This document shows, piece by piece, positions 10,827 through 45,230 of a stretch of 49,435 nucleotides of DNA. A program made the translations under genes and the position numbers. The notes beneath the pieces were generated by a model that saw nothing but the letters and a program-made list of their open reading frames with translations, was not told the DNA's origin and made no database searches. This DNA comes from a virus (Duplodnaviria; Heunggongvirae; Uroviricota; Caudoviricetes): positions 1 to 49,435 of the IMG/VR virus record IMGVR_UViG_2526164669_000023; one strand, 5' to 3'. Positions within the stretch are counted from its first letter, which is position 1. Each line of letters begins with the position of its first letter.

Positions 10827-11960
10827 ATGACTTGTCAAAGTATAATGAGAGATTGCATGAAGATTAACCATGAGGATTTAATTGATCTTATAAAGGCATC
10901 ACTGGATGCGAATTACAGCGAAGTTCGTAGTGTTAGTAATCGCATTGTTCGCGCAATTAGCGCTCAGGATGCTGACTTAGCAAAGCAAATTAAGTCTATC
11001 ATCCGTAAAAAAGGGGTACCATTACGTAGCTCTGGTTATACGGACAGTTTGCCCTTAGATCCGAAATCAAGGATGCCTTTAGTGGAAGAAGTCGAATGGC
11101 CTGCAACGCCTTTATTTCTTTCTGATGAATCACAGCATATTTTTCATGCTTTTATTCAGAATGTTATCCATCAGAATGAACTTATAGAGAATGGAATTCC
11201 AGGTAAATTGAATTTACTTCTTTCTGGTCCGCCAGGAACAGGTAAGACATTAGTCGCTGGTCATATCGCATCCAAATTAAACAAACCGCTCTATGTTGTT
11301 CGGCTTGACTCTGTTATTTCTTCTCTGTTAGGTGATACAGCGAAGAACCTAAGACAGATTTTTGACTTCGTCCCGACAAAAGATGGTGTGTTATTTCTTG
11401 ATGAAGTAGATGCGGTTGCTAAGCTTCGTGATGACAATCAGGAAGTTGGAGAGTTAAAAAGAGTTGTTAACACATTAATCCAAGGACTGGATTCTCTTGA
11501 TGATTCTGCTATTGTCATTGCTGCAACTAATCATTCGAAGCTATTGGATCCAGCAATTTGGAGACGTTTCCCATATAAAATTAGCTTTGGTTTGCCTGGA
11601 CAAGATGTCAGATGTGCTATGTGGGAACATTTTTTATTTAGAGATGATACGGATTCATTTCTAAGTAAAATGTTATCTATCATATCAACTGGGCTAACAG
11701 GTGCTGATATTGAAAATATCAGTTTATCTGCAAGAAGGCATAGTGTTTTATCTGGCAATGGACTGGATATACCATCTGTTGTTTATGCTATATTGAATAG
11801 CGTTGCAGATAGTACAGCAATTCCTTTTGGTAAGGATATAAATTCGAGTGTTAAGAAAAATTTAGCGAAGGAATTATCTAAGTTTAAATTATCACAGGCA
11901 GATATCGGTAGACTTTTAAATGTGAGCAGGCAAACTATATCAGGTTATTTCAAGGAATAA
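10827..11960 (+). CDS. Classical-clade AAA+ ATPase with C-terminal HTH (candidate defense ATPase, IetA-like)
   Basis: Walker A LLLSGPPGTGKT, Walker B VLFLDEVDA, sensor-1 IAATN, Arg-finger region LDPAIWRRFPY; C-terminal XRE-like HTH LSQADIGRLLNVSRQTISGYF. AT-rich relative to flanks. Alternative start at Met11 (10857). Confidence 0.75.
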   Translation: MTCQSIMRDCMKINHEDLIDLIKASLDANYSEVRSVSNRIVRAISAQDADLAKQIKSIIRKKGVPLRSSGYTDSLPLDPKSRMPLVEEVEWPATPLFLSDESQHIFHAFIQNVIHQNELIENGIPGKLNLLLSGPPGTGKTLVAGHIASKLNKPLYVVRLDSVISSLLGDTAKNLRQIFDFVPTKDGVLFLDEVDAVAKLRDDNQEVGELKRVVNTLIQGLDSLDDSAIVIAATNHSKLLDPAIWRRFPYKISFGLPGQDVRCAMWEHFLFRDDTDSFLSKMLSIISTGLTGADIENISLSARRHSVLSGNGLDIPSVVYAILNSVADSTAIPFGKDINSSVKKNLAKELSKFKLSQADIGRLLNVSRQTISGYFKE

Positions 11961-11962
11961 TT

Positions 11963-12538
11963 ATGGTCAGTGAAAATAAAGCTAAAATTTTAAACCCAAT
12001 AATTACTTTATTGAAGCCACCAACGCCAGAGGCGATTCCTGTTGGAGGGAAAAGTCGTAAAAATATTGTTGATTCACGGTTGAAACAACAGCGTGAAGTT
12101 TTATCCTCAGAGATAGATTCCATATTAAGAACAGAAGGTGAAATAGTTAAACATCGTGGTAAGTATCATATAGTAACAAGTATGTTTGAGGACTCATATG
12201 CACCATCGTTTATACCAGATTCATTATTCTGTCCCAGTGTTGAATGTAAGATAGTTGCACCAGCATACAATGGATATTTAATTGAGGTCAATAGCAATGC
12301 TTTATTGAAGTTGAAAAATAAAATTAATAATGCAAAAGCTATTACTGATCTTGTGGATATTTCAAGGGTTAGAAGTGTTAGTCTTTTTGATTCATCTTGT
12401 ACATTGCGAAATAGTAGCCTTGATTCGCTCTGGAATACAGTTAAGGCTTTGAATACATTTCAATTTAATATGTGGCTTATGCCTTTTTTTGATGAGCTTT
12501 CTAGAGAGTCTGTAGTTTCAACTTTTTTAAATTTTTAA
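11963..12538 (+). CDS. Hypothetical protein, middle gene of ATPase/protease cassette
   Basis: 191-aa ORF starting 3 nt after the ATPase stop; AT-rich; no motif I recognise. Confidence 0.55.
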   Translation: MVSENKAKILNPIITLLKPPTPEAIPVGGKSRKNIVDSRLKQQREVLSSEIDSILRTEGEIVKHRGKYHIVTSMFEDSYAPSFIPDSLFCPSVECKIVAPAYNGYLIEVNSNALLKLKNKINNAKAITDLVDISRVRSVSLFDSSCTLRNSSLDSLWNTVKALNTFQFNMWLMPFFDELSRESVVSTFLNF

Positions 12539-12741
12539 ATGATGGTATCATCGCTTTTGGTTATTCAGATTTTGACATAAAAACTATAAATCAAGATGCT
12601 GCTGTTGGCGGGGATAATATAGTCATAGTTCCACCGTTACTTATTGAAGCGATAAAAAAGTATCGTAAATCAGGTCAAGCATCCGTTACCGTCACTGTAG
12701 AGACTAAAGATAGTTTAAACAGGATACTGAATAGCAGTGCT

Positions 12742-14229
12742 GTGTATCGTATAGATCCTGTATCACCGCTAAACGTAACAGATACTCCTCCTGGTAATGG
12801 GGCTGAACCTGTTCCACCAATATTGGGGGATAAGAAAATGCCAACTGTAGTTGTAATTGATGGTGGGTGTAATGCGAAATCATATTCAAATTTAAATATA
12901 TATAAACTAAATCCGCTAATTCCAGATCATGATGCAGATTGTAAACATGGTAATAAAGTTGTATCGTTGTTATGTCACGGTTATGCTTGGAATAATAATT
13001 TAAACTTACCTAAATTGCAATGTAGCTATATAAGTGCACAGGCTATTGCGAAAAGGGGAGTGTTGAAACAACCAACTCCGGATCAATTTTTAAATTATTT
13101 AAGAATGGTTGCTGACAAAACGTCATCTATCGCCAAGGTCTGGAATCTTTCGTTTAATGAAGACGCTCCTCATTATAACTGTAATGAGATAAGTTATCTG
13201 GGACATAAAATCAGTTTGTTGGCTCGAGAATTTGGTATTCTGCCTGTAATATCTATCGGTAATGTTTCAAAGAACGAAAAACAAAAAAATCTTTGTCCGC
13301 CCGCAGATTGTGAGTCAGGAATTACAGTAAGTGGGAGAACGGCCAATCATGAAGGAATGCCTTCAGATGGCTGTCCTTTAAGTCGGAAAGGCCCTGCTCC
13401 TGCAGGAATGAAAAAACCTGAGTTATCATGGTTTTCTCGAGTTAGGGTGATAGGTGGAACAGTAGATATCGGAACAAGTTTTAGTGCTCCATTAGTTTCA
13501 TCTATTGCTGCTCATACCTTTTCGAATATTAAAAATGCCACTCCTGATTTGGTTAGGGCATTATTGATTAACAGGAGTGAGTTGCTTTCTCATGATGATG
13601 CATTAGGATGGGGGACTCCTTGGGATGGCGATTTACTGCCATGGTATTGTAAAGATGGCAGTGTCACATTAACGTGGATATCTAAGTTAAAGGCTGGGGC
13701 TGCTTATTATTGGAACGATCTTCCATTACCTCCAGAGATGTTAGTTAATGGTAAATTAGTTGGTGAGATATCTCTGACAGCTATACTAAAACCTAAGGTT
13801 TCTGAGTTCGGAAGTGAGAACTATTTTTCGACAAGGCTCCAATGTTCGTTACAGGCAATAAAAGAAATTAACGGAACGCTAAAAACAGAAAGCCTTCTTG
13901 GGTCAATGAAAGAATCTTCTGTTGATGAGCGTAAAGCTAGAAATGAACTTTCTAAATGGAGCCCTATTCGCCATCATGCAGAGTCGTTTAAGAGAAAAGA
14001 TATAACAGGGTGTAAAATTCGGCTTTATGCTAGGATATATGCTAGAGATTTGTATCAGTATGGGTTAAATAACCAACGGGAGCTTGAAGAGCAAGAGGTT
14101 TCCTTTGTTTTAACTTTTAAAAGTGTATCAGGATCGTCCTCAATATATACATCAATGGTTCAGCAACTTGGTGTTTATGTTGAAAGTGCTGTTATAGATA
14201 ATCACATTAACATAGATGTTAATAAGTGA
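12742..14229 (+). CDS. Subtilisin-like serine protease (peptidase S8) with C-terminal extension (IetS-like)
   Basis: D-H-S triad motifs in canonical order: VVVIDGGC, CKHGNKVV, GTSFSAPLVSSIAA; about 250 extra C-terminal residues. Track start is GTG; an ATG (MPTVVVIDGG) lies 32 codons downstream; in-frame stop at 12616. Confidence 0.75.
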   Translation: MYRIDPVSPLNVTDTPPGNGAEPVPPILGDKKMPTVVVIDGGCNAKSYSNLNIYKLNPLIPDHDADCKHGNKVVSLLCHGYAWNNNLNLPKLQCSYISAQAIAKRGVLKQPTPDQFLNYLRMVADKTSSIAKVWNLSFNEDAPHYNCNEISYLGHKISLLAREFGILPVISIGNVSKNEKQKNLCPPADCESGITVSGRTANHEGMPSDGCPLSRKGPAPAGMKKPELSWFSRVRVIGGTVDIGTSFSAPLVSSIAAHTFSNIKNATPDLVRALLINRSELLSHDDALGWGTPWDGDLLPWYCKDGSVTLTWISKLKAGAAYYWNDLPLPPEMLVNGKLVGEISLTAILKPKVSEFGSENYFSTRLQCSLQAIKEINGTLKTESLLGSMKESSVDERKARNELSKWSPIRHHAESFKRKDITGCKIRLYARIYARDLYQYGLNNQRELEEQEVSFVLTFKSVSGSSSIYTSMVQQLGVYVESAVIDNHINIDVNK

Positions 14230-17395: not shown

Positions 17396-17471
17396 GGCCC
17401 TTTAGCTCAGTGGTGAGAGCGAGCGACTCATAATCGCCTGGTCGCTGGTTCAAATCCAGCAAGGGCCACCA
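17396..17471 (+). tRNA. tRNA with CAU anticodon (Ile2/Met type, ileZ-like)
   Basis: 76 nt; acceptor GGCCCTT/AAGGGCC, anticodon loop CTCATAA, T-arm GCTGG-TTCAAAT-CCAGC, 3' CCA. Confidence 0.8.
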
Positions 17472-17473
17472 TT

Positions 17474-17550
17474 CCGCCACTAGCTCATCGGGATAGAGCA
17501 TCAACCTTCTAAGTTGATTGTGCGAGGTTCGAGTCCTCGGTGGCGGACCA
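17474..17550 (+). tRNA. tRNA-Arg (anticodon UCU)
   Basis: 77 nt; acceptor CCGCCAC/GTGGCGG, anticodon loop CTTCTAA, T-arm CGAGG-TTCGAGT-CCTCG, 3' CCA. Confidence 0.8.
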
Positions 17551-18034
17551 TTCCATGCAAGTTTAGCTGGCAGCGCTATTAGCTCGGCGTAATAGGGCTA
17601 TTCGTTAGGCTCTGTTAGTTCACCATATTTCGTCAAAACTTTTCTTTTCAACGCTACAGTTAACGTTAATCATTACAAAAACTACTGCTGATGTAAGTCT
17701 TGTGAACTGTTATTTCTGAAGAGCTTACTGTGATTTATTGCGACAACGGAGTTAGCGTACTCCCAATTTGTTCATTTTTATGTTGTTTTTTTTCACAATT
17801 TCCTGTGAGAAATCAGAAGTCTGGATGAAATAATGCAAAATGGCATCTGAATCGATCGCAGTTTGGCATTCGAATCGATCATGATTTGGCATCCATCTCC
17901 GATCACAGTTTGGCATCACAATCGATCACGATTTGGCATACTTCCGATCATTGATTGGCATTCGCCAGTCACTCCGGGAATTAACTCTTTTCACCACAGT
18001 CTCCATTGCCGTGTTTAAACCAGTGGAGACGTCA

Positions 18035-19600
18035 ATGTCCAAAAAGAGAAAATCCAGGAGCACTATGGAAACTTGTTTTAAGATCCTTCAGCTCAAGTTC
18101 GATAAGAAGCTGACTAACCGTTGTATCGGACTGACGTTACACATCAGCGCCTCAACCGTTTTTGAGGTTCTTGCCCGCTTCAAAGCCTCTTCTCTGTCAT
18201 GGCCATTACCTGCTGATATATCCCATGACACGCTGGAGAAACTCATTTTCCCGCCCAAAGACACCTCTGCGTCAGAGCTTGTTATGCCTGACATGCTGTA
18301 CTTCGATACGGAAATGAGAAAACCTGGCGTGACGCGCCAACTGTTGTGGATGGAATACAAGGCACAGGCGGGTGACAAAGCGATGGGATACTCACACTTC
18401 TGCCGTTGCTACCGGAAGTGGAAAAAAACGCGACGCCTCTCCATGCGACAGGAGCATCGTGCTGGCGAAAAGCTCTTTATCGACTTCTGTGGTCCTACGC
18501 TTCCTGTTATTAATCCGGACACCGGAGAGATACGCCGCGTGGCAATCTTCGTGGCTGTAATGGGGGCGTCCAACTATACCTATGTTGAAGCGTGCGAAGG
18601 TCAGGACATGATGTCATGGTTAAATGCCCACAGCCGTTGCCTGACCTTCCTGGGCGGCGTACCGAAGCTGCTCATCCCCGATAACCTCAGAAGCGCAGTG
18701 AAAAAAGCCGATCGCTATGAGCCTGTCATCAACGACAGTTATCAGGCGCTGGCTGAGCACTATGGCACGGTTATTATCCCGGCCCGCCCGCGCAAACCTA
18801 AAGATAAACCAAAAGCAGAAAACGGCGTCCTCATCGTCGAGCGATGGCTTCTTGCCCGCATCCGTAATGAAACCTTCCACACGCTCAGGGCGCTGAATGC
18901 ACGCCTTCGGGAGTTGCTGACGGACATGAATAACCGACCAATGAAGGGATACGGTAATCAAACCCGCGCAGAACGCTTCCGCATGCTGGATGCACCAGCA
19001 CTCTCTCCGCTGCCTCTGGAGCCTTATGAATACACGGAATACAAAGCCGTGAAGGTTGGCCCTGACTACCACGTTGAATATGCCCGTCACTGGTACTCCG
19101 TTCCACACGAACTGGTCGGTCAGCGTCTGTCACTGAAGGTGGGGCAGTCGGTGGTACAGCTCTGGCACAAGGGGCAGTGTGTGGCGCAACATCCGCGCAG
19201 CACACATGAATATAAACACACAACCAATCCGCTTCACATGCCAGAACGCCACCGGCGGCATGGGACATGGACACCGGAACGCCTTATCGAGCAGGGAAAC
19301 CGTACAGGTCCGTCCACAGGCCGGGTGGTTGAATCCATGCTGAAAGCCAAACCCCATCCGGAGCTGGCTTACCGTGCAGTCCTGGGTCTGCTGGCACTTC
19401 AGAAAAAATACGGCCCGGAACGGCTGGAAAAGGCCTGTTACGTTGCCCTGCACTATAACGCCCCGGACAGACGCTTTATCGACAATCTGCTGCGTCATCA
19501 TCGGGATAACGTTGAGCTTCCGTTATCCCGCCAGGGCGAACAACATCCGGCATATGCTTCAGAGCATGAAAACCTGCGTGGTCCTGGCTACTACCACTGA
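18035..19600 (+). CDS. istA: IS21-family transposase IstA
   Basis: 521 aa from MSKKRKSRSTMETCF; N-terminal HTH and DDE-type core; followed by an IstB ATPase. Confidence 0.8.
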   Translation: MSKKRKSRSTMETCFKILQLKFDKKLTNRCIGLTLHISASTVFEVLARFKASSLSWPLPADISHDTLEKLIFPPKDTSASELVMPDMLYFDTEMRKPGVTRQLLWMEYKAQAGDKAMGYSHFCRCYRKWKKTRRLSMRQEHRAGEKLFIDFCGPTLPVINPDTGEIRRVAIFVAVMGASNYTYVEACEGQDMMSWLNAHSRCLTFLGGVPKLLIPDNLRSAVKKADRYEPVINDSYQALAEHYGTVIIPARPRKPKDKPKAENGVLIVERWLLARIRNETFHTLRALNARLRELLTDMNNRPMKGYGNQTRAERFRMLDAPALSPLPLEPYEYTEYKAVKVGPDYHVEYARHWYSVPHELVGQRLSLKVGQSVVQLWHKGQCVAQHPRSTHEYKHTTNPLHMPERHRRHGTWTPERLIEQGNRTGPSTGRVVESMLKAKPHPELAYRAVLGLLALQKKYGPERLEKACYVALHYNAPDRRFIDNLLRHHRDNVELPLSRQGEQHPAYASEHENLRGPGYYH

Positions 19601-19616
19601 CAGAAGGAACAACCGT

Positions 19617-20372
19617 ATGAGTGATAATCTGTTAAACAAACTGACCCAACTGAAACTCCCGGCGATGGCCGGGAGCCTGATACGGCAACGGGAAACGCCT
19701 CAGACTTACGACGAACTGTCGTTCGAGGAAAGGCTGACACTGCTGGTTGATGACGAGCTTCTGAGCAGAGAAAACAGTCGTGTGGCACGGTTGAGAAAAA
19801 ATGCCTGCCTGAAATATCAGGCAACACCGGAAGGGCTGCGTTATCCGGCCTCAAGAGGTCTGCGGGCTGAACAGATGAGGGAACTGCTGAACGGCCACTA
19901 CATAATCCACAGGAAAAACCTACTGATAACCGGTCCGACAGGATGCGGTAAGAGCTGGATAGCCAATGCGCTGGGCGAACAGGCATGTCGACAGAAATAC
20001 AGCGTCCGGTACTGTAGAACCGGGCGATTACTGGAACAGTTGGCTCAGGGACGTGTTGATGGCAGTTGGCTGAAATATCTGAAACAGTTGCAAAAAATAC
20101 AGGTTCTAATCCTGGACGATCTGGGGCTGGAACAGTTAAGTAACGCCCAGTGTAATGACCTTCTGGAGATCACAGAGGATCGTTACGGACAAAGCAGCAC
20201 GATAGTGGTAAGCCAGTTCCCGGTAGATAAATGGCATGGTCTGATGGAGAACCCAACAACAGCAGATGCCATCCTGGACAGACTGGTACATAACTCACAC
20301 AGAGTGGTCCTTCAGGGAGAGTCCCTGAGGAAAAATCCCCCGACAGTGGAAAGCAGCGAAAAAACGAGTTAA
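19617..20372 (+). CDS. istB: IS21-family helper ATPase IstB
   Basis: 251 aa from MSDNLLNKLTQLKLPAMAG; Walker A GPTGCGKSWIANAL, Walker B VLILDDLG. Confidence 0.8.
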   Translation: MSDNLLNKLTQLKLPAMAGSLIRQRETPQTYDELSFEERLTLLVDDELLSRENSRVARLRKNACLKYQATPEGLRYPASRGLRAEQMRELLNGHYIIHRKNLLITGPTGCGKSWIANALGEQACRQKYSVRYCRTGRLLEQLAQGRVDGSWLKYLKQLQKIQVLILDDLGLEQLSNAQCNDLLEITEDRYGQSSTIVVSQFPVDKWHGLMENPTTADAILDRLVHNSHRVVLQGESLRKNPPTVESSEKTS

Positions 20373-21147
20373 AAAGCGGTAGAAAAAGTTAAGTTCCCGG
20401 TTGATCGAATGGATGCGAATCGCTGATCGAACTTCGATGCCAATCCGTGATCGAATAGAGCGGAATACGCAAATAACGTAAATTGTATGCGTATGATACA
20501 TATTTATACATATATTTAAATATGAAAACTAATTAGTTTTTGATGTCATATAAATTATCGGTAATATTACTCCCGACCCGAAAGGCAGCAAGTTTCTGTT
20601 CACAGGGGTGTTACCCGCTGTCTTGCGGGTCATTGCAGGCATCCGTTTAATCATAATGAAGGGCTGTTATCAGTATCAGTGTCATTATTGTGGTTACGGA
20701 GGCCTGCTCTATGTGCAGGTATCGTATAGTGGTTATTACATCAGCCTTAGGTTGGTAATGCCGGTTCGATTCCTGTTCTCCGCAACTTCATTGTTTTTTG
20801 GACAAGTTTTTACAGCACTGGCGGTTTTCGTGAGGAACAGATCTCTTTAATACCTTTATCGTCCCTCATTCTGTAATGGAGATCGGTTACAGACTCAGTG
20901 CTGTATTTTTTATGACACAGAAATGGCGCATTGCCCACGAAAGGAAGCAGGATTTAGCGTGGAGTAACCAGTGATGCGCCATCTCTGTGTCGGAAAACAT
21001 GAATTGGGGCGTTCCTCAGTGCGAGGGTGGTTTATAGAGTCGGTTTAGCGGGAAACCACAGTATCCACGTAAAGTGGAATACTTCGGGAGGCACCCGATG
21101 CCCCAAACCCAATAATCATTATAATATTGTGTCCTTTTATCGTTTTA

Positions 21148-22974: not shown

Positions 22975-23766
22975 ATGAGCGAGAAATTGAAGATCGTCTA
23001 TCGCCCGTTACAAGAACTGTCTCCGTATGCACACAATGCCAGGACACACAGCCCTGAGCAGGTGGCACAACTGGTAGAAAGCATTAAGCAATTCGGCTGG
23101 ACTAATCCAGTGCTGATTGATGAAAAGGGCGAAATTATTGCTGGTCACGGTCGCGTTATGGCGGCTGAGGCGCTCAAAATGGATTCGGTTCCGGTTATTG
23201 TTCTGTCTGGTCTGACGGATGATCAGAAAAAGGCGTACCGCCTGGCAGATAATCGCCTGCCGATGAATGCTGGCTGGGATGAAGATCTGTTACGGATGGA
23301 GCTGTCGGACCTAATCAATGCTGATTTTGATATCTCCCTGACAGGATGCAGCCCGACAGAAATTGATGAACTGTTGACGGATGTTTTGCCCGGTACAGGA
23401 AATGAGGAGGAACCGTACACGACGAAAATTGATACGCCTGTTTATGAGCCGTCGGGCGATAAACCAGATATCAGTGAACTGTACGACGATACGAAAACTC
23501 AGGAGTTGATCAGCCGGATACGTTCGGCGTCCCTTGATCCTGATATTGAGAAATTCCTCCTGTGTGCGGCAGAACGTCATACGGTGTTTAATTTCAGCAG
23601 AATTGCGGACTATTACGCTCACGCCCCCGCTGAAATTCAGTGCTTTTTCGAGGAATCGGCGCTGGTGATCATTGATTATCAGCAGGCTATTGAAAATGGA
23701 TTTGTCCGGATGACGCAGCGTATGGTGGAGATCATGCATGGCGGGGAGGAGGAGGAATATGCGTGA
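22975..23766 (+). CDS. ParB-like nuclease domain protein
   Basis: 263-aa ORF; N-terminal ParB/Srx-type motif (LIDEKGEIIAGHGRVMAA); acidic C-terminus; upstream of terminase genes. Confidence 0.6.
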   Translation: MSEKLKIVYRPLQELSPYAHNARTHSPEQVAQLVESIKQFGWTNPVLIDEKGEIIAGHGRVMAAEALKMDSVPVIVLSGLTDDQKKAYRLADNRLPMNAGWDEDLLRMELSDLINADFDISLTGCSPTEIDELLTDVLPGTGNEEEPYTTKIDTPVYEPSGDKPDISELYDDTKTQELISRIRSASLDPDIEKFLLCAAERHTVFNFSRIADYYAHAPAEIQCFFEESALVIIDYQQAIENGFVRMTQRMVEIMHGGEEEEYA

Positions 23767-24697
23767 TGATTTTTGCGCCTTTATTCTGACTCACGGGCGA
23801 CCGGACAAAGTTCTGACTTACCGGACGTTGCGTCGTGCTGGCTATACCGGGAAAATTTTTATCGTTGTTGATGATGAAGATAAAGATAATACACGGCATC
23901 ACTACATAGCTGAATTTAGTGAACAGGTGCTGGTGTTTTCCAAAGCCGATATCGCCAGTCGTTTTGACGAAGCCGATAATTTCGGTGACCGCCGATCAAT
24001 TTTTTACGCCCGTAATGCCTGTTTCGACCTGGCAAAACTGGTCGGGTGTAAATACTTCATTCAGCTCGATGATGATTATCACGAGTTCCAGTTTCGGGTG
24101 GATCGCAACTATGACCAGGCCTATTTCCCGATAAGAAAACTGGATGCGATCCTTTCTGAAATGCTGGCGTACTACGAATCAATACCTGCGCTTTCCATCG
24201 CTATGTCGCAGGGCGGAGATTTTCTTGGTGACAATGGCGGCCATGCTTCGTGGGTGAAACGCAAGGCAATGAACAGTTTTATCTGTTCCGTTGATCGACC
24301 GTTCTCATTCATGGGGCGCATTAACGAGGATGTGAATACGTATACGAATCTTGGTCGCTGTGGTGAATTGTTTATGACGATCGGTGCTGTCCAGTTAGGG
24401 CAGAAACAGACGCAGAAAAACAGCGGCGGAATGACCGAGCTGTATCTGGACTCCGGAACCTACGTTAAAAGTTTTTACTCCGTCATGTATGCGCCGTCGT
24501 GCGTAAAAATCTCACTGATGGGTGCCAGCCATAAACGCATTCACCATCAGGTCACCTGGAACAACGCTGCAGTAAAAATCCTTCACGAAAAATACAGGAA
24601 GAAGACACCCTGCATATCAATGGGGGTGACAAATGATTCCGTATTCGAAAGTAGAGTCTCTGGCAGCGTGCCGGATGACTGCACAACAAATCGCTGA
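23759..24697 (+). CDS. Hypothetical protein, possible GT-A-like glycosyltransferase
   Basis: 312 aa from MRDDFCAFILTHGRPDK; candidate DXD motif FIQLDDDY; RBS GGAGGAGGAA; overlaps the ParB-like gene by 8 nt. Function is a guess. Confidence 0.4.
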   Translation: MRDDFCAFILTHGRPDKVLTYRTLRRAGYTGKIFIVVDDEDKDNTRHHYIAEFSEQVLVFSKADIASRFDEADNFGDRRSIFYARNACFDLAKLVGCKYFIQLDDDYHEFQFRVDRNYDQAYFPIRKLDAILSEMLAYYESIPALSIAMSQGGDFLGDNGGHASWVKRKAMNSFICSVDRPFSFMGRINEDVNTYTNLGRCGELFMTIGAVQLGQKQTQKNSGGMTELYLDSGTYVKSFYSVMYAPSCVKISLMGASHKRIHHQVTWNNAAVKILHEKYRKKTPCISMGVTNDSVFESRVSGSVPDDCTTNR

Positions 24698-27311: not shown

Positions 27312-28751
27312 TTGATGGCAGAGATCGAGATTACTGGCGGCCTCGGTTCAGCACTGATGCGTATTCTTGAGGCTGAAGAAATTCAGCCGGGAACCGATAT
27401 TGGCTATGAATTGTGTAAGCTGCTGTGGCAATTCCATCCTCTGGGCGGAAAACTTGTCGAAAAACCCATACTGATGGCGATGTGTAAGCCGCGACAGTAT
27501 AACGTGGAGACAGATCCTGACGAGAGGGTTGTGCGGCGTTTCCAGGAGGTATGGGAACGTATGAGGGTCAACGAGAAGATAAAAAATCTGTTTTTTCTGT
27601 CTCGTTGCTACGGTGCTGCAGCGATCGGCGTGGGCACCGACAGTGTTTCATGTCGTGAGCCGCTTCCGACATTCGGGCTGACAGAAGAGGATGTGTATAT
27701 CAACGCGTGGGATCCGTTGAACGCTTCCGGTTCGATGGTGACTGACCAGAACCCAAACAGTCCGTTTTTCCAGGAAGCCAACAAAAGGCTGAAGATTGGC
27801 GGAAAAGACTGGCATCCGTCACGCACACTGAAAATCTTCAACGGCACACCGATTTATCTGGAGTTTCAGAGTTCATCGTTCGGATTCACCGGACGAAGTG
27901 TGTTTCAGCGCGTTCTTTATTCCCTGAAATCCTATATCAACACGATGGAGGCGAATGATCTCGTCAGTCAGAAGGCGGGCGTACTGGTAGCTAAAGTTGT
28001 GCAGTCCGGTTCGAAAATGGACGGGATCATGGCTGCTGCCACGGGGCGTAAAAGGGAAAACGTGAAAGCCGCCAAAAATAAAGGCGTGTTGAGTATTGGA
28101 AAAGACGAAGACGTAAGTTCACTGAACCTGCAAAACATCGACGGGGCGCTGAATACTGCCCGCGACAATATCATTGCTGATATTGCCGCCGGGAGTGACG
28201 TTCCGGCCATTATTATCAAGGAAGAAGCATTCAGTAACGGATTCGGTGAAGGTAAGGAGGACTCGAAAGCCATCAGCCAGTATATCGATGGTGTACGCCA
28301 GCAGATTGAACCTGTGATGGATTATTTCGAACGCCTGGTGCAGTACATCGCCTGGAACGAGGAATTTTATCAGTCGCTGAAAAATGATTACCCGGACATC
28401 ATAACCGAGGACTATAAAACCACGTTTTACCAGTGGCGGCGCGAGTTTACCGCGACGTGGCAGGAGCTGGTGGAGGAGTCGCCGGACAAACGCCGGGAAA
28501 GCGACAGTAAAGTGATTCAACAGGCGATAGCACTTTTCTCTGCCGTGTCGCTACAGGTTGATCCTGAAAACCGTGCCGCCGTCACTGAATGGCTGGCAAG
28601 CCTTGTTAATGCCACGCAGACCTATGGCGAAGCTCCACTCATCATTGATGTGGACGCCCTGGCGAATTATGAACCACCGAAGCAGGAGACGCCTGATGGC
28701 AATTTCCAGCCGGGCGGGGAGGAAGAAGAAACGGATCAGGACGCTGTATGA
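27312..28751 (+). CDS. Portal protein (putative)
   Basis: 479-aa ORF immediately after TerL; acidic C-terminus; assigned by position and size. Confidence 0.5.
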   Translation: MMAEIEITGGLGSALMRILEAEEIQPGTDIGYELCKLLWQFHPLGGKLVEKPILMAMCKPRQYNVETDPDERVVRRFQEVWERMRVNEKIKNLFFLSRCYGAAAIGVGTDSVSCREPLPTFGLTEEDVYINAWDPLNASGSMVTDQNPNSPFFQEANKRLKIGGKDWHPSRTLKIFNGTPIYLEFQSSSFGFTGRSVFQRVLYSLKSYINTMEANDLVSQKAGVLVAKVVQSGSKMDGIMAAATGRKRENVKAAKNKGVLSIGKDEDVSSLNLQNIDGALNTARDNIIADIAAGSDVPAIIIKEEAFSNGFGEGKEDSKAISQYIDGVRQQIEPVMDYFERLVQYIAWNEEFYQSLKNDYPDIITEDYKTTFYQWRREFTATWQELVEESPDKRRESDSKVIQQAIALFSAVSLQVDPENRAAVTEWLASLVNATQTYGEAPLIIDVDALANYEPPKQETPDGNFQPGGEEEETDQDAV

Positions 28752-42022: not shown

Positions 42023-42064
42023 TACCGGTTCATTTCACTTTAAATTCTAACCATAAAACGAAAA

Positions 42065-42095
42065 CCCCGACTGTTGGCCCAGTCGGGGTTTTCTG
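42065..42095 (+). terminator. Intrinsic terminator inside the baseplate gene cluster
   Basis: Perfect 9-bp stem CCCCGACTG / CAGTCGGGG with 6-nt loop followed by TTTTCTGTTTCT. Confidence 0.65.
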
Positions 42096-42104
42096 TTTCT
42101 CACC

Positions 42105-42308
42105 TTGAATACGCAAGGGATGATTACGTATGTTTGGAGGTCTTCCGTGATTAATTTTAGCGGAGGAGACTGGATTGTGAAAGCCTTAAAATTAGTGGCA
42201 AAAAGCAATACCTTACGACGCATGTATTACACCGCTGCACTCGTAGCTTTAGCATTTGCCTTTTCACCAGTACTGACAGAGTTAGTTAAAGTGATGGGGG
42301 CACGATGA
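42105..42308 (+). CDS. Small hypothetical protein (67 aa)
   Basis: ORF with one hydrophobic segment (YYTAALVALAFAFSPVL); stop overlaps the next start (ATGA). Confidence 0.35.
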   Translation: MNTQGMITYVWRSSVINFSGGDWIVKALKLVAKSNTLRRMYYTAALVALAFAFSPVLTELVKVMGAR

Positions 42309-42652
42309 GAACATGGGGCCGCGTCACCGACGCGAACGGCAACAAAAAATGGGTTACAGTAGAATCTGACGCCAACGGTGATTTCTCCTATGGCTGGCTG
42401 ACGACGCTCATTCAGACGTTAAAGCTGGGATTGGGGGAGTCGCCGTTTTACGCGAATTACGGTATTCCTGCACAGCAGTGCATCGTGCAGCAGATTTACC
42501 CAGACTACTATGTGAACATGGTTCAGCAACAGTTTGCTGGGTATTTTGCATCACTGGCAATTTCAAAGGTAGATGGAGCAGATAACCCCACCTATAACAT
42601 CGATGTTGTGTTTTTTAATGGGACCAGTTACCGGACGCAGGTGCCGGTATGA
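42305..42652 (+). CDS. Baseplate protein (gpW/gp25-like, putative)
   Basis: 115-aa ORF, size and position as for gpW-type baseplate wedge proteins. Confidence 0.4.
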   Translation: MRTWGRVTDANGNKKWVTVESDANGDFSYGWLTTLIQTLKLGLGESPFYANYGIPAQQCIVQQIYPDYYVNMVQQQFAGYFASLAISKVDGADNPTYNIDVVFFNGTSYRTQVPV

Positions 42653-42802
42653 ATCACAGTTTTATGATAAAACTTTTACCTTGGTTTGGAGTGCTGTAGA
42701 GAGATATTTTAGGGGGGGCGAGTAATTTTCTAAGCTGGAGCATATTGACATATATTATTTCGGATTTGCAAAATACATATTGTTACCATGGAGGAGACAA
42801 GC

Positions 42803-43963
42803 ATGGAAAATTTTGCAAATAAGTTAAAAATACACACAGAGCATGTTGCAAAAATGGGGGTGTTTTGTACAACTGAAGAAACGACAAAACAAGCACTCAT
42901 TATGCCATTACTAGATATTCTTGGTTTTACTCCGTATGATCCAAGAAAAGTCAAAGCTGAGTATAGTGCTGACTTCCCCGGGGTTAAGGCTAATGAACGG
43001 GTTGATTACGCTTTATTTTGTCATGATGTTCCTGTGATGTTCATTGAGGCGAAATCGTTTTCAGAACAAATTGATAATCACTGCCCACAGCTATCAAGAT
43101 ATTTTAATTCAACACCGGAAGTTACTATATCAGCCATTACAAATGGTGTTGAATGGCGTTTTTTTACGGATTTGAAACAAAAAAACATAATGGATTCAAC
43201 GCCGTTTTTAAAAATAAGAATGGATTCTCTAACTCACTCCGATATTACACAATTATTTCGTTTTCGTTATGATAAATTCAAACCAGAGGCTTTACGGACA
43301 CTGGCTGAAGAAAGTGTTTATTTGAATTCATTTACTAAAACAATCAGTTCTAGTCTTCGTGAAGTTGATCTGGAGTTTGTTCGATATGTTGCTAGTCGTT
43401 CAAATATTGAGAGACAACTTAATCAGAGATTTCTTGAGTTCGTGACTCCATTAGTTAAACAGGCCGTTGAGCGCGCTGTTAGCGCAATGGTGGTTTCCGG
43501 GCTATCTACACAACCGGTAGAGCAAACTAAAGAAAATGATGCAACGGATACACAAGTTAATAACGCCATTGTTGATGAAGAAAACCCCAACATAATAACC
43601 ACAGCCAAAGAATTGGAGCTATTTGAAAGGGTAAAACAAATCATACAAACAGAAGATAATATAGAATATAAAGATACTGAGTCATATTTTGGTGTACTAT
43701 TGAATGGTAAAACTAATAGATGGCTGTTAAGATTTTATGATAAAAAATCTTCATTTATAACTTTACCTATTTCGCTTAGTGAAGTTCAGTTGAATGAAAT
43801 AAGACGAGCTCGACTTGATACGGATGGTAAAAGGATACATATAACTAATCCGGAAGATATACTTCGCATATCTGGTTTGATTCTGGATTCATACGAGTAT
43901 GTTAAAAATGATGATAATTTCCGCCGAGGGTCCAGAGCGAGCAGTTTAGAAGAGGTTGAATAA
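42803..43963 (+). CDS. PD-(D/E)xK nuclease-fold protein, HsdR N-terminal-like domain (moron; candidate defense gene)
   Basis: About 386-aa ORF; motif ERVDYALFCHDVPVMFIEAKSF (D...E-A-K); AT-rich, own RBS GGAGGAG, promoter-like AT-rich upstream region with TTGACA at about 42745, own terminator. Confidence 0.65.
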   Translation: MENFANKLKIHTEHVAKMGVFCTTEETTKQALIMPLLDILGFTPYDPRKVKAEYSADFPGVKANERVDYALFCHDVPVMFIEAKSFSEQIDNHCPQLSRYFNSTPEVTISAITNGVEWRFFTDLKQKNIMDSTPFLKIRMDSLTHSDITQLFRFRYDKFKPEALRTLAEESVYLNSFTKTISSSLREVDLEFVRYVASRSNIERQLNQRFLEFVTPLVKQAVERAVSAMVVSGLSTQPVEQTKENDATDTQVNNAIVDEENPNIITTAKELELFERVKQIIQTEDNIEYKDTESYFGVLLNGKTNRWLLRFYDKKSSFITLPISLSEVQLNEIRRARLDTDGKRIHITNPEDILRISGLILDSYEYVKNDDNFRRGSRASSLEEVE

Positions 43964-43965
43964 GT

Positions 43966-43992
43966 AAAAAACCCGCGAAAGCGGGTTTTTTA
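43966..43992 (+). terminator. Intrinsic terminator after the nuclease moron
   Basis: CCCGC-GAAA-GCGGG hairpin followed by TTTTTT. Confidence 0.75.
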
Positions 43993-44003
43993 ATGGAGTA
44001 AAT

Positions 44004-45230
44004 ATGTCAGAAATACCAATTACTATGACCAGTGCGGGGGCGCAGCCTACGCCACCCAATGATTTGCTTGCAAATCTTATCATCAGAGTTGCTGAAAAAG
44101 TACCTGGATATACAGCCAACCTTCCGGCGGGGCTTATTACTGACCTTGCCAGCACGGCAGTCGGGGCGCTGGCATTAATAGACCAGGCGCGGGTGGACCT
44201 TATTAACTCCGTAAGCCCATACGGCGCAAATATTCCGTTACTGATGCAACTCGGAAACATTTATGGAGCACAGAAGGGATTAAGTACAAATACGGCGGTA
44301 TACGTGGTGTTTGAGGCGTTGCCGGGGTTTGGTATCCCTAAAGGATTTGTTGTCGGTGACGGCAACTACCAGTATGCAGTTTCCCGCGATACGGTGGTGC
44401 CGGAAAGCGGGCAGACTGAGCCAGTCTACTGTGTGGCCACAACGTCAGGCTCATGGGCTGTACCGGAAGGAACCGTAACGCAGGTCATTACATCGGTACC
44501 CAAAGATCAGCCTGTAAAATGCACGAACCTTACCGCAGGGATGCCAGGTCAGGAGGCGCAAACGTGGGCATCTTACCGCGCCGAAGTCATGGAGTCCGGC
44601 ATGTTTGGTGTGCAGGGAACACCGGATTGCTTTAAAGCGATGCTCAAATCAGTAAGCGGTGTGCGAGAAAACCTGATTTCTTTCCGGCAGTCGTCGCTGG
44701 GGAAATGGGTTGCGGTTGTTGGTGGCGGTGATCCGTATGATGTGGCTTATGCTATTTACAAATCTGTACCGGATATTTCGAAACTGACCAACGATGTTAG
44801 CAATCCATCTGGTGCGGCAGTGGAAAAACGCACGGTTTCAATAACCGTTTCGCCAGATGTTTATCAGGTACCGTTCGTTATCCCGTCATCACAAAACGTC
44901 ATGGTGCTAATCACCTGGAACACTGTATCTGATGATTATGTTGATCCGGCGGGTATTGCTATGGCTGTGCAGCAAAACGTTGCTGATTACATCAATTCTA
45001 TTGAAGTCGGACACCCGATAAATCTGCTGCGAATCCAGGATATTTTTACCAGTTCCGTCAGATTGTTGGTTGATGCGACGTTGATCTCAACAATCAGTGT
45101 GAGCATTGGCATTAATGGCCATATTGTTCCTCCGGCAAAAGACACAAGCCTGGTTTATGGCGATACCTATTCCTATTTTTCGACGGTGGTATCACAGGTT
45201 CAAGTTAACAAGTATGCAATATCTGACTGA
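44004..45230 (+). CDS. Baseplate J-like protein (putative)
   Basis: 408-aa ORF; position after W-like and before I-like/tail-fiber genes. Confidence 0.5.
   Translation: MSEIPITMTSAGAQPTPPNDLLANLIIRVAEKVPGYTANLPAGLITDLASTAVGALALIDQARVDLINSVSPYGANIPLLMQLGNIYGAQKGLSTNTAVYVVFEALPGFGIPKGFVVGDGNYQYAVSRDTVVPESGQTEPVYCVATTSGSWAVPEGTVTQVITSVPKDQPVKCTNLTAGMPGQEAQTWASYRAEVMESGMFGVQGTPDCFKAMLKSVSGVRENLISFRQSSLGKWVAVVGGGDPYDVAYAIYKSVPDISKLTNDVSNPSGAAVEKRTVSITVSPDVYQVPFVIPSSQNVMVLITWNTVSDDYVDPAGIAMAVQQNVADYINSIEVGHPINLLRIQDIFTSSVRLLVDATLISTISVSIGINGHIVPPAKDTSLVYGDTYSYFSTVVSQVQVNKYAISD

What the first reader, a model, noticed from the sequence alone, without database searches (positions are those of the whole stretch)
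42700..43992. Autonomous nuclease-like moron inserted between baseplate genes
An AT-rich gene with its own promoter-like region, strong RBS and a perfect terminator interrupts an otherwise tightly coupled W-like to J-like baseplate operon. Its N-terminal region carries a PD-(D/E)xK-type signature (DYALF...MFIEAK) resembling the N-terminal domain of type I restriction R subunits; the C-terminal 200 residues are unassigned. A solitary nuclease-fold gene at this position is a candidate defense or abortive-infection gene.
Basis: partly seen in the sequence, partly recalled or inferred. Interest (0 to 1): 0.7.

Follow-up and report, generated by a model that had tools for sequence, protein, structure and literature searches.

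The report
Solitary prophage nuclease cargo gene
A foreign, self-contained gene for a two-part DNA-cutting enzyme sits in a cargo slot between tail-baseplate genes of an E. coli Rac-type prophage; its relatives usually lie right behind the prophage repressor gene, so it is probably an untested anti-phage restriction protein.

Summary
A 1.33-kb AT-rich cassette (42664-43995) carries one gene, most likely starting at 42803 (386 aa). It has a GGAGGAG ribosome site, a promoter-like site and a 12-bp terminator hairpin.

The N-terminus is an HsdR-N-type PD-(D/E)xK nuclease. E25, D68, K84 and Y100 are invariant, and E82 and Q96 nearly invariant, across 94 relatives of about 30% identity. The previously unassigned C-terminus is now assigned: a helical spacer, an acidic linker and a YjbR/YdhG/MotA-CTD-like "double-wing" domain.

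It is not a type I R subunit. It has no motor domains and no HsdM/HsdS partners. No PADLOC defence model matches, and I found no paper on the family.

The W-like/J junction is a standing cargo hotspot; relatives carry Ant plus small unknown genes there. The family is very large. In 56 of about 72 other viral loci the gene lies directly downstream of the prophage repressor, in the rexAB position. It also occurs alone in chromosomes. One natural variant has the C-domain replaced by DUF4357.

Best reading: a methyltransferase-less restriction or exclusion nuclease expressed in the lysogen (about 0.55). The function is untested. Interest is moderate.

The parts
42305..42652 (+). Upstream conserved flank: 115-aa 'W-like' gene (left homology arm of the hotspot)
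   Evidence: ORF. It matches phrog_7986 (unknown function, 1.3e-64) and has no Pfam hit. It is 94% identical to Rac-SA53 and pPE4 up to ~42663.
42664..43995 (.). Cargo cassette: the DNA that differs from related prophages (boundaries +/- ~5 bp)
   Evidence: blastn homology with Rac-SA53 and pPE4 ends at 42663 and resumes at 43996 (alignments). GC is 0.30-0.39. The cassette is present at >=98.8% identity in 25 of 5426 complete E. coli genomes; other cargo occupies the same site elsewhere.
42745..42774 (+). Promoter-like site TTGACA-18 nt-CAAAAT
   Evidence: Consensus scan, 10 of 12 matches. Not tested. Promoter-like sites are about twice as common as expected throughout this AT-rich stretch.
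42790..42796 (+). Shine-Dalgarno GGAGGAG, 6 nt before ATG 42803
   Evidence: Read directly from the sequence.
42803..43963 (+). CDS, 386 aa (alternative in-frame ATG at 42788 gives 391 aa): solitary two-domain nuclease, phrog_4225
   Evidence: ORF. phrog_4225 matches at 4.7e-149 over the full length. PGAP calls it WP_000426901.1 from the same start. dN is 0.09-0.30 with synonymous sites saturated, and dN/dS is 0.15 where computable.
42803..43267 (+). N-terminal PD-(D/E)xK nuclease domain (aa 1-155); catalytic codons D68 43004-43006, E82 43046-43048, K84 43052-43054; Q96xxxY100
43268..43516 (+). Helical spacer (aa 156-238; three helices, two of them long)
   Evidence: AF2 secondary structure: H161-186, H190-199, H208-235, pLDDT 90-97. 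It stays with the nuclease domain in the natural domain swap.
43517..43588 (+). Acidic, disordered linker (aa 239-262)
   Evidence: pLDDT is 44-75. Net charge is -6 here; the family median is -4. This is the point of domain exchange in P0163 versus P0327.
43589..43927 (+). C-terminal alpha+beta 'double-wing'/CyaY-like domain (aa 263-375); conserved T266, T267, E270, D291, Y295, R310
43965..43992 (+). Intrinsic-terminator hairpin (12-bp stem, GAAA loop, A6/U6 arms; looks bidirectional)
   Evidence: RNA fold: dG -17.4 kcal/mol, z -5.8.
44004..45230 (+). Downstream conserved flank: baseplate J-like gene (right homology arm); its GGAG ribosome site (43995-43998) lies at the cassette edge
   Evidence: Pfam Baseplate_J 7.1e-8 and phrog_6 baseplate wedge 2.9e-37. 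Homology among relatives starts only a few bases before the ATG.

Best explanation
The cassette is horizontally acquired cargo in a Rac-family E. coli prophage. It encodes a single-protein DNA endonuclease that works without a methyltransferase or any other partner.

The protein has two modules. The first is an HsdR-N/type IIG-like PD-(D/E)xK cleavage head followed by a helical spacer. An acidic flexible linker joins it to the second module, a YjbR/MotA-CTD-like double-wing domain.

The most likely role is restriction or exclusion of incoming phage or other foreign DNA while the prophage is resident. On this reading the C-terminal domain chooses the target, most plausibly modified bases or another feature absent from host and prophage DNA, and the N-terminal domain cuts.

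Shown here: the cassette and its boundaries, the nuclease fold and invariant active-site residues, the fold of the C-domain, the absence of partners, the hotspot, the family's position behind repressor genes, and the modular C-terminus.

Inferred, not shown: expression in the lysogen, DNA binding by the C-domain, the nature of the target, and any anti-phage phenotype.
For: - Modularity: P0163 is 78% identical to P0327 over aa 1-251. Beyond that point P0163 carries DUF4357 where P0327 has the usual C-domain.
- Context in Enterobacterales prophages: in 56 of about 72 non-window viral loci the gene is the next gene after a prophage repressor on the same strand. The repressor is RacR-type, cI/S24-type or short HTH-type, and the gap is 5-21 bp for cI-type. 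This is the rexAB position.
- Context elsewhere: between repressor and integrase in Streptococcus, Lacticaseibacillus and Clostridium phages; beside HicAB in a Porphyromonas phage; opposite to late transcription between Q and stx in an Stx2 prophage; alone among housekeeping genes in Gilliamella and Edwardsiella.
- No conserved neighbour other than the repressor side.
- Strong purifying selection.
- The window site is a cargo hotspot with at least five other cargo sets.
- The same prophage carries other defence cargo: IetAS and sieB.
Against: - There is no experimental phenotype for any family member in the literature I could search.
- No PADLOC model matches.
- The C-domain is not basic (net charge about 0). 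Its fold also occurs in proteins that do not bind DNA, such as frataxin/CyaY and YdhG, so DNA reading is not established.
- In the window the gene is co-oriented with the late tail operon, so it would also be transcribed during lytic growth. Its promoter is only a consensus match.
- Position behind a repressor is compatible with other lysogen functions.
Confidence: 0.55

Rival explanations
1. Abortive-infection or toxin-type nuclease. The C-terminal domain, with the acidic linker, holds the nuclease inactive or senses a phage protein. Infection releases an indiscriminate nuclease that destroys host and phage DNA and kills the cell.
For: - It is a solitary nuclease with no methyltransferase and no obvious way to tell self from non-self.
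- The CyaY/frataxin-like fold is often a protein-binding fold, and the C-domain is not basic.
- The acidic disordered linker could act as a DNA mimic or autoinhibitor.
- The exchangeable C-terminal module resembles the sensor modules of other defence proteins.
- It lies next to HicAB in a Porphyromonas phage.
Against: - No antitoxin or partner gene is conserved nearby.
- The closest fold matches that have a known ligand bind DNA (MotA-CTD; YjbR is predicted to).
- Nothing here distinguishes this from direct restriction.
Confidence: 0.2
2. A nuclease that serves the phage's own life cycle, for example host-DNA degradation, recombination or replication-intermediate processing, or attack on competing elements during lytic growth. 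It would not protect the lysogen.
For: - In the window it is co-oriented with the late operon and would be read through during lytic growth.
- In lambdoid prophages it borders the early-left recombination genes recE/recT, gam and kil.
- PHROGs files it under 'DNA, RNA and nucleotide metabolism'.
Against: - With cI-type repressors it lies 5-21 bp after the repressor gene and is separated by 100-550 bp from the early-left genes. This is the rexAB slot, not the PL operon.
- It is dispensable: close relatives of the window phage lack it.
- It occurs alone in non-prophage chromosome contexts.
- It lies opposite to late transcription in the Stx2 prophage.
Confidence: 0.1
3. A selfish homing-type endonuclease gene that spreads by cutting the empty W-like/J junction of related phages and being copied in by repair.
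For: - It is a free-standing nuclease gene wedged exactly between two conserved genes, with foreign composition and its own signals.
- Related copies occur at several unrelated genomic positions.
Against: - The junction is a general hotspot that holds unrelated, non-nuclease cargo in most relatives. No empty site was seen.
- The family's dominant position is operonic with repressor genes, and some copies are stable chromosomal genes.
- Upstream sequences differ between contexts, so only the CDS moves.
- 293 clusters at E<=1e-30, with the gene at full length in most representatives and under purifying selection where tested, do not fit short-lived homing genes.
Confidence: 0.07
4. A truncated, non-functional remnant of a type I restriction R subunit, as the database name 'type I restriction endonuclease' suggests, or a structural tail protein.
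For: - Automated names in NCBI say so.
- The gene is located among tail genes.
Against: - Most of the 150 best representative clusters are 330-430 aa and match over most of the query, and 127 of them carry the distinct C-domain.
- The active site is invariant and dN/dS is low.
- It has no helicase domains and no HsdM/HsdS nearby.
- It has no similarity to any tail family, and it is absent from sister phages that make the same tail.
Confidence: 0.02

Closest known systems
Nuclease domain of type I restriction R subunits (HsdR; Pfam HSDR_N PF04313/PF13588; e.g. EcoR124I HsdR, PDB 2w00; 3h1t)
   Same: - PD-(D/E)xK fold, with Pfam matches above the cut-offs.
- D...ExK motif followed by QxxxY.
   Different: - It has no SF2 translocase domains and no C-terminal HsdM-contact domain.
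- No hsdM or hsdS genes lie nearby.
- It is 386 aa against about 1000 aa.
- It carries its own C-terminal double-wing domain.
N-terminal cleavage heads of type IIG/IIL enzymes (DrdV 7lo5, BpuSI 3s1s, MmeI family)
   Same: - 21 of 94 family members weakly hit the PADLOC type IIG REase-MTase models through this domain.
   Different: - No methyltransferase or target-recognition domain is fused.
- The reader module here is a small YjbR-like domain.
Methyltransferase-less, modular 'reader + nuclease' restriction enzymes (type IV: McrBC, MspJI/SRA, EVE- and YjbR-EVE-nuclease fusions; END nucleases, PLD + inactive EndoIII)
   Same: - A solitary nuclease with no cognate methyltransferase.
- Cleavage module and separate C-terminal module joined by a linker.
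- Natural exchange of the C-terminal module.
- The YjbR fold has precedent in predicted modified-DNA restriction fusions (PMC7641849) and is a structural neighbour of McrB-N (PMC3424535).
- END nucleases show that the same logic works as a single-gene defence (PMC12191111).
   Different: - The domain combination (HSDR_N head + YjbR/YdhG-like domain) is not among those described.
- No EVE, SRA, PUA or EndoIII reader is present.
- Dependence on DNA modification is untested.
Lambda rexAB / sieB / BstA-type cargo of prophage immunity regions
   Same: It occupies the same genomic slot in most relatives: immediately downstream of the repressor and co-directional with it, so it is expected to be made in lysogens.
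   Different: - There is no sequence or fold relationship.
- The resemblance is positional only.
- In the window itself the gene is in a tail-module hotspot instead.
phrog_4225 ('endonuclease')
   Same: Full-length match, E 4.7e-149. This is the phage protein family the gene belongs to.
   Different: The PHROG label is a homology-based annotation only. No function has been tested.

Membership tests
PD-(D/E)xK nuclease superfamily, HSDR_N branch (PF04313/PF13588) | Profile match above the curated cut-off | tested here: met
   HSDR_N scores 52.9 bits (cut-off 25.1) and HSDR_N_2 scores 37.7 bits (cut-off 25). 94 of 94 and 93 of 94 family members match.
PD-(D/E)xK nuclease superfamily, HSDR_N branch (PF04313/PF13588) | Catalytic D...(D/E)xK residues conserved, on an alpha-beta-beta-beta-alpha core | tested here: met
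   [not shown]
Type I restriction enzyme R subunit (HsdR) | SF2 helicase/translocase motor domains after the nuclease domain | tested here: not met
   The protein is 386 aa. Pfam finds only the two HSDR_N families. NCBIfam PRK11448 scores 18.9 bits against a cut-off of 729.
Type I restriction enzyme R subunit (HsdR) | Encoded with hsdM and hsdS partner genes | tested here: not met
   None is present in the window prophage annotation. None recurs among the neighbours in 96 loci.
Type IIG/IIL restriction-modification enzymes | Nuclease head fused to a gamma-class methyltransferase and target-recognition domain | tested here: not met
   Only the head and connector resemble DrdV and BpuSI. No methyltransferase domain is found.
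Type IV (modification-dependent) restriction enzymes | Nuclease without a cognate methyltransferase | tested here: met
   Solitary in Gilliamella and Edwardsiella chromosomes and in the window. No conserved partner.
Type IV (modification-dependent) restriction enzymes | A domain that reads modified bases | tested here: inconclusive
   [not shown]
Type IV (modification-dependent) restriction enzymes | Cleaves modified DNA but not unmodified DNA | not testable with these tools
   This needs in vitro cleavage assays or plating assays with phages of defined modification.
Known anti-phage defence systems (PADLOC-DB v2.0.0) | Match to a defence-system protein model | tested here: not met
   No family matches the window protein at E<=1. 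Other members only hit type IIG, Cas4 and methyltransferase models weakly, through the nuclease head.
DefenseFinder 'FS_HsdR_like' (PICI-borne system; recalled from memory) | Homology to its HsdR-like protein | not testable with these tools
   The model and the paper are not available here. A literature search for the name found nothing.
Homing endonuclease genes | Cuts the cognate empty site and is copied into it | not testable with these tools
   Context argues against it: the site is a general cargo hotspot and the family is mostly operonic with repressors.
Phage tail/baseplate structural proteins | Homology to a tail family and conservation among phages sharing the tail module | tested here: not met
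   No tail family matches. Sister phages at about 95% flank identity lack the gene.

The most novel reading that the evidence does not exclude
This is one copy of a very widespread but uncharacterised single-protein immunity family. The family would be the usual occupant of the 'rexAB slot' behind the repressor in many enterobacterial lambdoid prophages, and of the repressor-integrase interval in Gram-positive temperate phages. It would use a YjbR/CyaY-like double-wing domain as a previously unrecognised reader of modified or otherwise phage-specific DNA to direct an HsdR-type nuclease head. That would make it a new architecture of methyltransferase-less restriction enzyme.
Probability: 0.35. 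Interest if true: 0.7.

Novelty: new variant of a known kind. Interest (0 to 1): 0.5.

Why it matters
If it is a defence gene, it adds a compact, single-gene restriction architecture: an HsdR-type head, a spacer and an exchangeable small reader domain.

The family is very common. The exact protein is on at least 1000 public contigs. The representative library holds 3369 clusters (at 50% identity) matching at E<=0.001. Members occur in Enterobacterales, Firmicutes and Bacteroidota phages.

Databases currently name it 'type I restriction endonuclease', which is misleading.

It could explain part of the superinfection resistance that Rac-like, lambdoid and Stx prophages confer. It could also give the YjbR/YdhG-like fold a concrete role.

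The work also maps a cargo hotspot inside a tail-baseplate module. Its other occupants, Ant plus small unknown genes, are further candidates for study.

Tried and rejected
**Searches that found nothing useful**
- Sequence searches of the PDB with the protein and with the family profile found nothing relevant.
- PADLOC had no match for the window protein.
- The search for related loci with the deep alignment A1 failed because it has no conserved stretch. It worked with the closer set A3.
- The AlphaFold-DB Foldseek library was not installed.
- The C-domain had no significant match in BFVD; MotA and Alc appear only at E>0.1.
- A profile search with the C-domain alone returned only fragments of the same family, so it showed no new architectures.
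- Two look-ups of distant homologs gave contigs too short to show context.
- The alternative cargo genes at the hotspot have no Pfam or PADLOC match apart from AntA.
- Net-charge analysis of the domains was uninformative about DNA binding.

**Literature**
- No paper on this family was found.
- GiPD474 is an ATPase protein.
- END nucleases are PLD + iEndoIII.
- The 'HsdR N-terminal' entries in the DefensePredictor supplement are 825-971 aa proteins.
- Brenes & Laub 2025 is not held.

**Ideas rejected**
- Pairing in trans with the prophage's ParB_N + TAGT genes as an R-M-like system: the family mostly lives in phages without them, and the host chromosome would be unprotected.

**Tool-call errors**
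- Searches were coordinate errors. They arose from a 1-bp indel between the window and the reference genome.

Full report
**1. What is in the sequence**

The finding's ORF exists at 42788..43963 on the + strand, 391 aa from the first ATG. The likelier start is the second ATG at 42803, giving 386 aa. A GGAGGAG lies 6 nt upstream of it (42790-42796). Both RefSeq (WP_000426901.1) and the database cluster representative (P0001) use this start.

The region is compositionally foreign. GC is 0.30-0.39 over 42650-43999 and 0.44-0.56 on either side. A TTGACA-18-CAAAAT promoter-like site lies at 42745-42774. Such sites are about twice as frequent as expected throughout this AT-rich stretch, so this is weak evidence.

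One base after the stop codon there is a perfect 12-bp hairpin with a GAAA loop and A6/U6 arms (43965-43992). Its dG is -17.4 kcal/mol, z = -5.8, and none of 200 shuffles folds as well.

**2. Where the window comes from and what the site is**

The window is collinear with, and essentially identical to (one 1-bp indel), a complete Rac-family prophage at the ttcA site of E. coli OkiPb01675. That prophage runs intR, xisR, ralR, recET, kilR, sieB, racR and onward to the tail fibres.

Two deposited phages, Rac-SA53 and 'Actinobacillus' vB_Apl-pPE4, share the flanks at about 95% identity but not the gene. Homology runs through the stop codon of the upstream 115-aa gene to about 42663. It resumes at about 43996, a few bases before the ATG of the Baseplate_J gene. 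The cargo cassette is therefore 42664-43995.

In relatives the same interval holds other cargo, mostly on the opposite strand:
- Ant plus two unknown genes;
- Ant plus one unknown gene;
- Ant plus one unknown gene on each strand;
- Ant plus two unknown genes and an IS1;
- Ant plus two small genes.

Among 5426 complete E. coli genomes, 91 have the flanks and 25 have this cassette at >=98.8% identity. So the gene does not interrupt a pristine operon. It is one of several alternative occupants of a standing hotspot, exchanged by recombination in the conserved flanking genes.

The 'W-like' label for the upstream gene is unverified: it matches phrog_7986, of unknown function, and has no Pfam hit. 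The downstream gene is a true Baseplate_J protein.

**3. What the protein is**

Pfam gives HSDR_N (5.6e-14) and HSDR_N_2 (2.4e-9), both above their cut-offs. PHROGs gives a full-length match to phrog_4225, 'endonuclease' (4.7e-149). PADLOC gives nothing. The NCBIfam type I endonuclease model scores 18.9 bits against a cut-off of 729.

The family is large:
- 3369 representative clusters at E<=1e-3 and 293 at E<=1e-30;
- the exact protein occurs on at least 1000 public contigs.

In an alignment of 94 homologs averaging about 30% identity, E25, D68, K84, Y100 and G115 are invariant. E82, Q96 and others are >=90% conserved. This gives D68-x13-E82-x-K84 followed by Q96xxxY100. From memory, that is the motif layout of RecB-like and HsdR nuclease domains; I could not verify the residue-by-residue correspondence with EcoR124I here.

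AlphaFold2 with this alignment gives pLDDT 92.4. The model has four parts:
- an alpha/beta nuclease core (aa 1-155);
- a helical spacer (aa 156-238);
- a disordered acidic linker (aa 239-262, net charge -6);
- a compact alpha+beta domain (aa 263-375).

**4. The formerly unassigned C-terminus**

Modelled alone, the C-domain has pLDDT 92.8 and pTM 0.83. It is most similar to:

No Pfam model matches it in any member.

The C-domain is a separable module. 127 of 150 representative relatives have it, and a few have unrelated tails. P0163 is 78% identical to P0327 over residues 1-251. Beyond that point P0327 has the usual C-domain (E 1e-33) and P0163 has DUF4357 (PF14267) instead.

**5. Where the family lives**

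This is the most informative evidence for function. I clustered the neighbours in 96 loci. About 24 are the window type. Of the other roughly 72 loci, 56 have a prophage repressor as the immediately preceding gene on the same strand, with a cro-like gene divergent upstream:
- 28 have a RacR-type repressor, at a gap of about 155 bp;
- 23 have a cI-type HTH_3 + Peptidase_S24 repressor, at a gap of 5-21 bp in most;
- 5 have other HTH or S24 repressors.

Annotated examples from Citrobacter, Providencia, Pectobacterium and Salmonella show the same order: cro, then cI, then this gene, then a gap, then kil/recET or gam, then int. That is the place rexAB occupies in lambda.

Other contexts:
- In Streptococcus, Lacticaseibacillus and Clostridium temperate phages it lies in the lysogeny module, between repressor and integrase and on their strand.
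- In a Porphyromonas phage it sits next to HicAB.
- In an Stx2 prophage it lies between Q and the methylase/tRNA/stx region, on the opposite strand.
- In Gilliamella and Edwardsiella it is a lone chromosomal gene.

Nothing downstream is conserved, and no methyltransferase or other partner recurs. The coding sequence is under strong purifying selection: dN is 0.09-0.30 with synonymous sites saturated, and dN/dS is 0.15 where computable.

**6. Most likely mechanism**

Shown: an intact, conserved PD-(D/E)xK nuclease head; a spacer and linker; an exchangeable C-terminal double-wing domain; no partner genes; residence in cargo slots of temperate phages that are typically expressed from the prophage.

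Inferred: the protein is made in lysogens and cuts incoming foreign DNA. The C-domain would select the substrate. Because there is no methyltransferase, the target must be something that host and prophage DNA lack. The most economical candidate is modified bases, which would make it type IV-like. I give the overall defence or exclusion reading about 0.55 and the modification-dependent sub-reading about 0.3.

Rivals:
- a trigger-activated, abortive nuclease in which the C-domain is a sensor or autoinhibitor (0.2);
- a nuclease used by the phage itself during lytic growth (0.1);
- a homing-type selfish nuclease (0.07);
- a remnant of a type I R subunit or a tail protein (0.02, effectively refuted).

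**7. Comparison with what is known**

The protein works most like modular methyltransferase-less restriction enzymes: McrBC/MspJI-type readers fused or coupled to nucleases, YjbR-EVE-nuclease fusions, and the recently described END nucleases (PMC12191111).

It is a member of the HSDR_N branch of PD-(D/E)xK nucleases and of phrog_4225.

It is not a type I R subunit, because it lacks motor domains and HsdM/HsdS. It is not a type IIG enzyme, because it lacks methyltransferase and target-recognition domains. It is not any PADLOC-listed system. The database name 'type I restriction endonuclease' is therefore misleading.

I could not check the DefenseFinder model FS_HsdR_like, which I recall from memory. 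I also could not read Brenes & Laub 2025. Either could change the novelty call.

**8. Verdict**

- the start codon moves to 42803;
- the site is a hotspot with alternative cargo, not an insertion into an intact operon;
- the C-terminal fold is now assigned.

The function is still a candidate, not a result. Novelty is a new variant of a known kind. Interest is about 0.5: a strong, testable candidate in a crowded field. It is made more attractive by the size of the family, its consistent association with prophage repressors across phyla, and an unusual reader fold.

Noticed in passing
window 10857-14229: An IetA/IetS (Gao_Iet) defence pair lies between the replication genes and the nin-like region. 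IetA matches PADLOC at 4.8e-100. In the window IetS is split by a 1-bp frameshift into ORFs 11963-12538 and 12742-14229, but it is one intact 2268-bp gene in E. coli OkiPb01675.
   Followed up: partly
window 22975-24697: A ParB_N-domain protein is followed by an overlapping TET-associated glycosyltransferase (TAGT, PF20691, 9.6e-33; PGAP calls it 'GREB1-related'), just upstream of the small terminase. This may be a DNA-modification module of the phage. No TET/JBP gene was noticed.
   Followed up: partly
L001 3297-5165; L002 3297-4352; L019 3192-4970; L020 2342-4822; L021 2829-4190: The same W-like/J hotspot in related prophages holds an AntA-type antirepressor plus one to three small genes, once with IS1. 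These small genes have no Pfam or PADLOC match. They are uncharacterised cargo and possible further defence or counter-defence candidates.
   Followed up: partly
window 42060-42290: A second small variable spot lies between the V-like baseplate gene and the W-like gene. It has a 14-bp GC-rich hairpin that reads as a terminator on both strands (42060-42093). Homology to Rac-SA53 is lost over 42119-42290, where the window has a 67-aa ORF (42105-42308) with no family match.
   Followed up: no
L002 (PP818812.1): 'Actinobacillus phage vB_Apl-pPE4' is about 95% identical in its tail module to E. coli Rac-type prophages. The stated host may be wrong, or the phage may derive from an E. coli contaminant.
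   Followed up: no
L005 8002-9159 (E. coli JNEC-KY177, Stx2 prophage): A copy about 78% identical at the DNA level lies between the Q antiterminator and the methylase/tRNA/stx2 region. It is on the opposite strand to late transcription. The same layout appears in IMG/VR loci L044 and L096.
   Followed up: partly
window 42658-42674: A perfect 8-nt inverted repeat (AGTTTTAT g ATAAAACT) sits exactly at the left cassette boundary. It may be chance.
   Followed up: no
window ~27315-28751 (L004 5016-6452): PGAP labels the 478-aa protein next to the large terminase, in the portal position, as 'anti-CBASS protein Acb1 family'. The label looks doubtful and was not checked.
   Followed up: no
window ~17396-20373: tRNA-Ile and tRNA-Arg genes are followed by an IS21-family element (ISSso4 istA/istB), inserted upstream of the lysis genes.
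   Followed up: no
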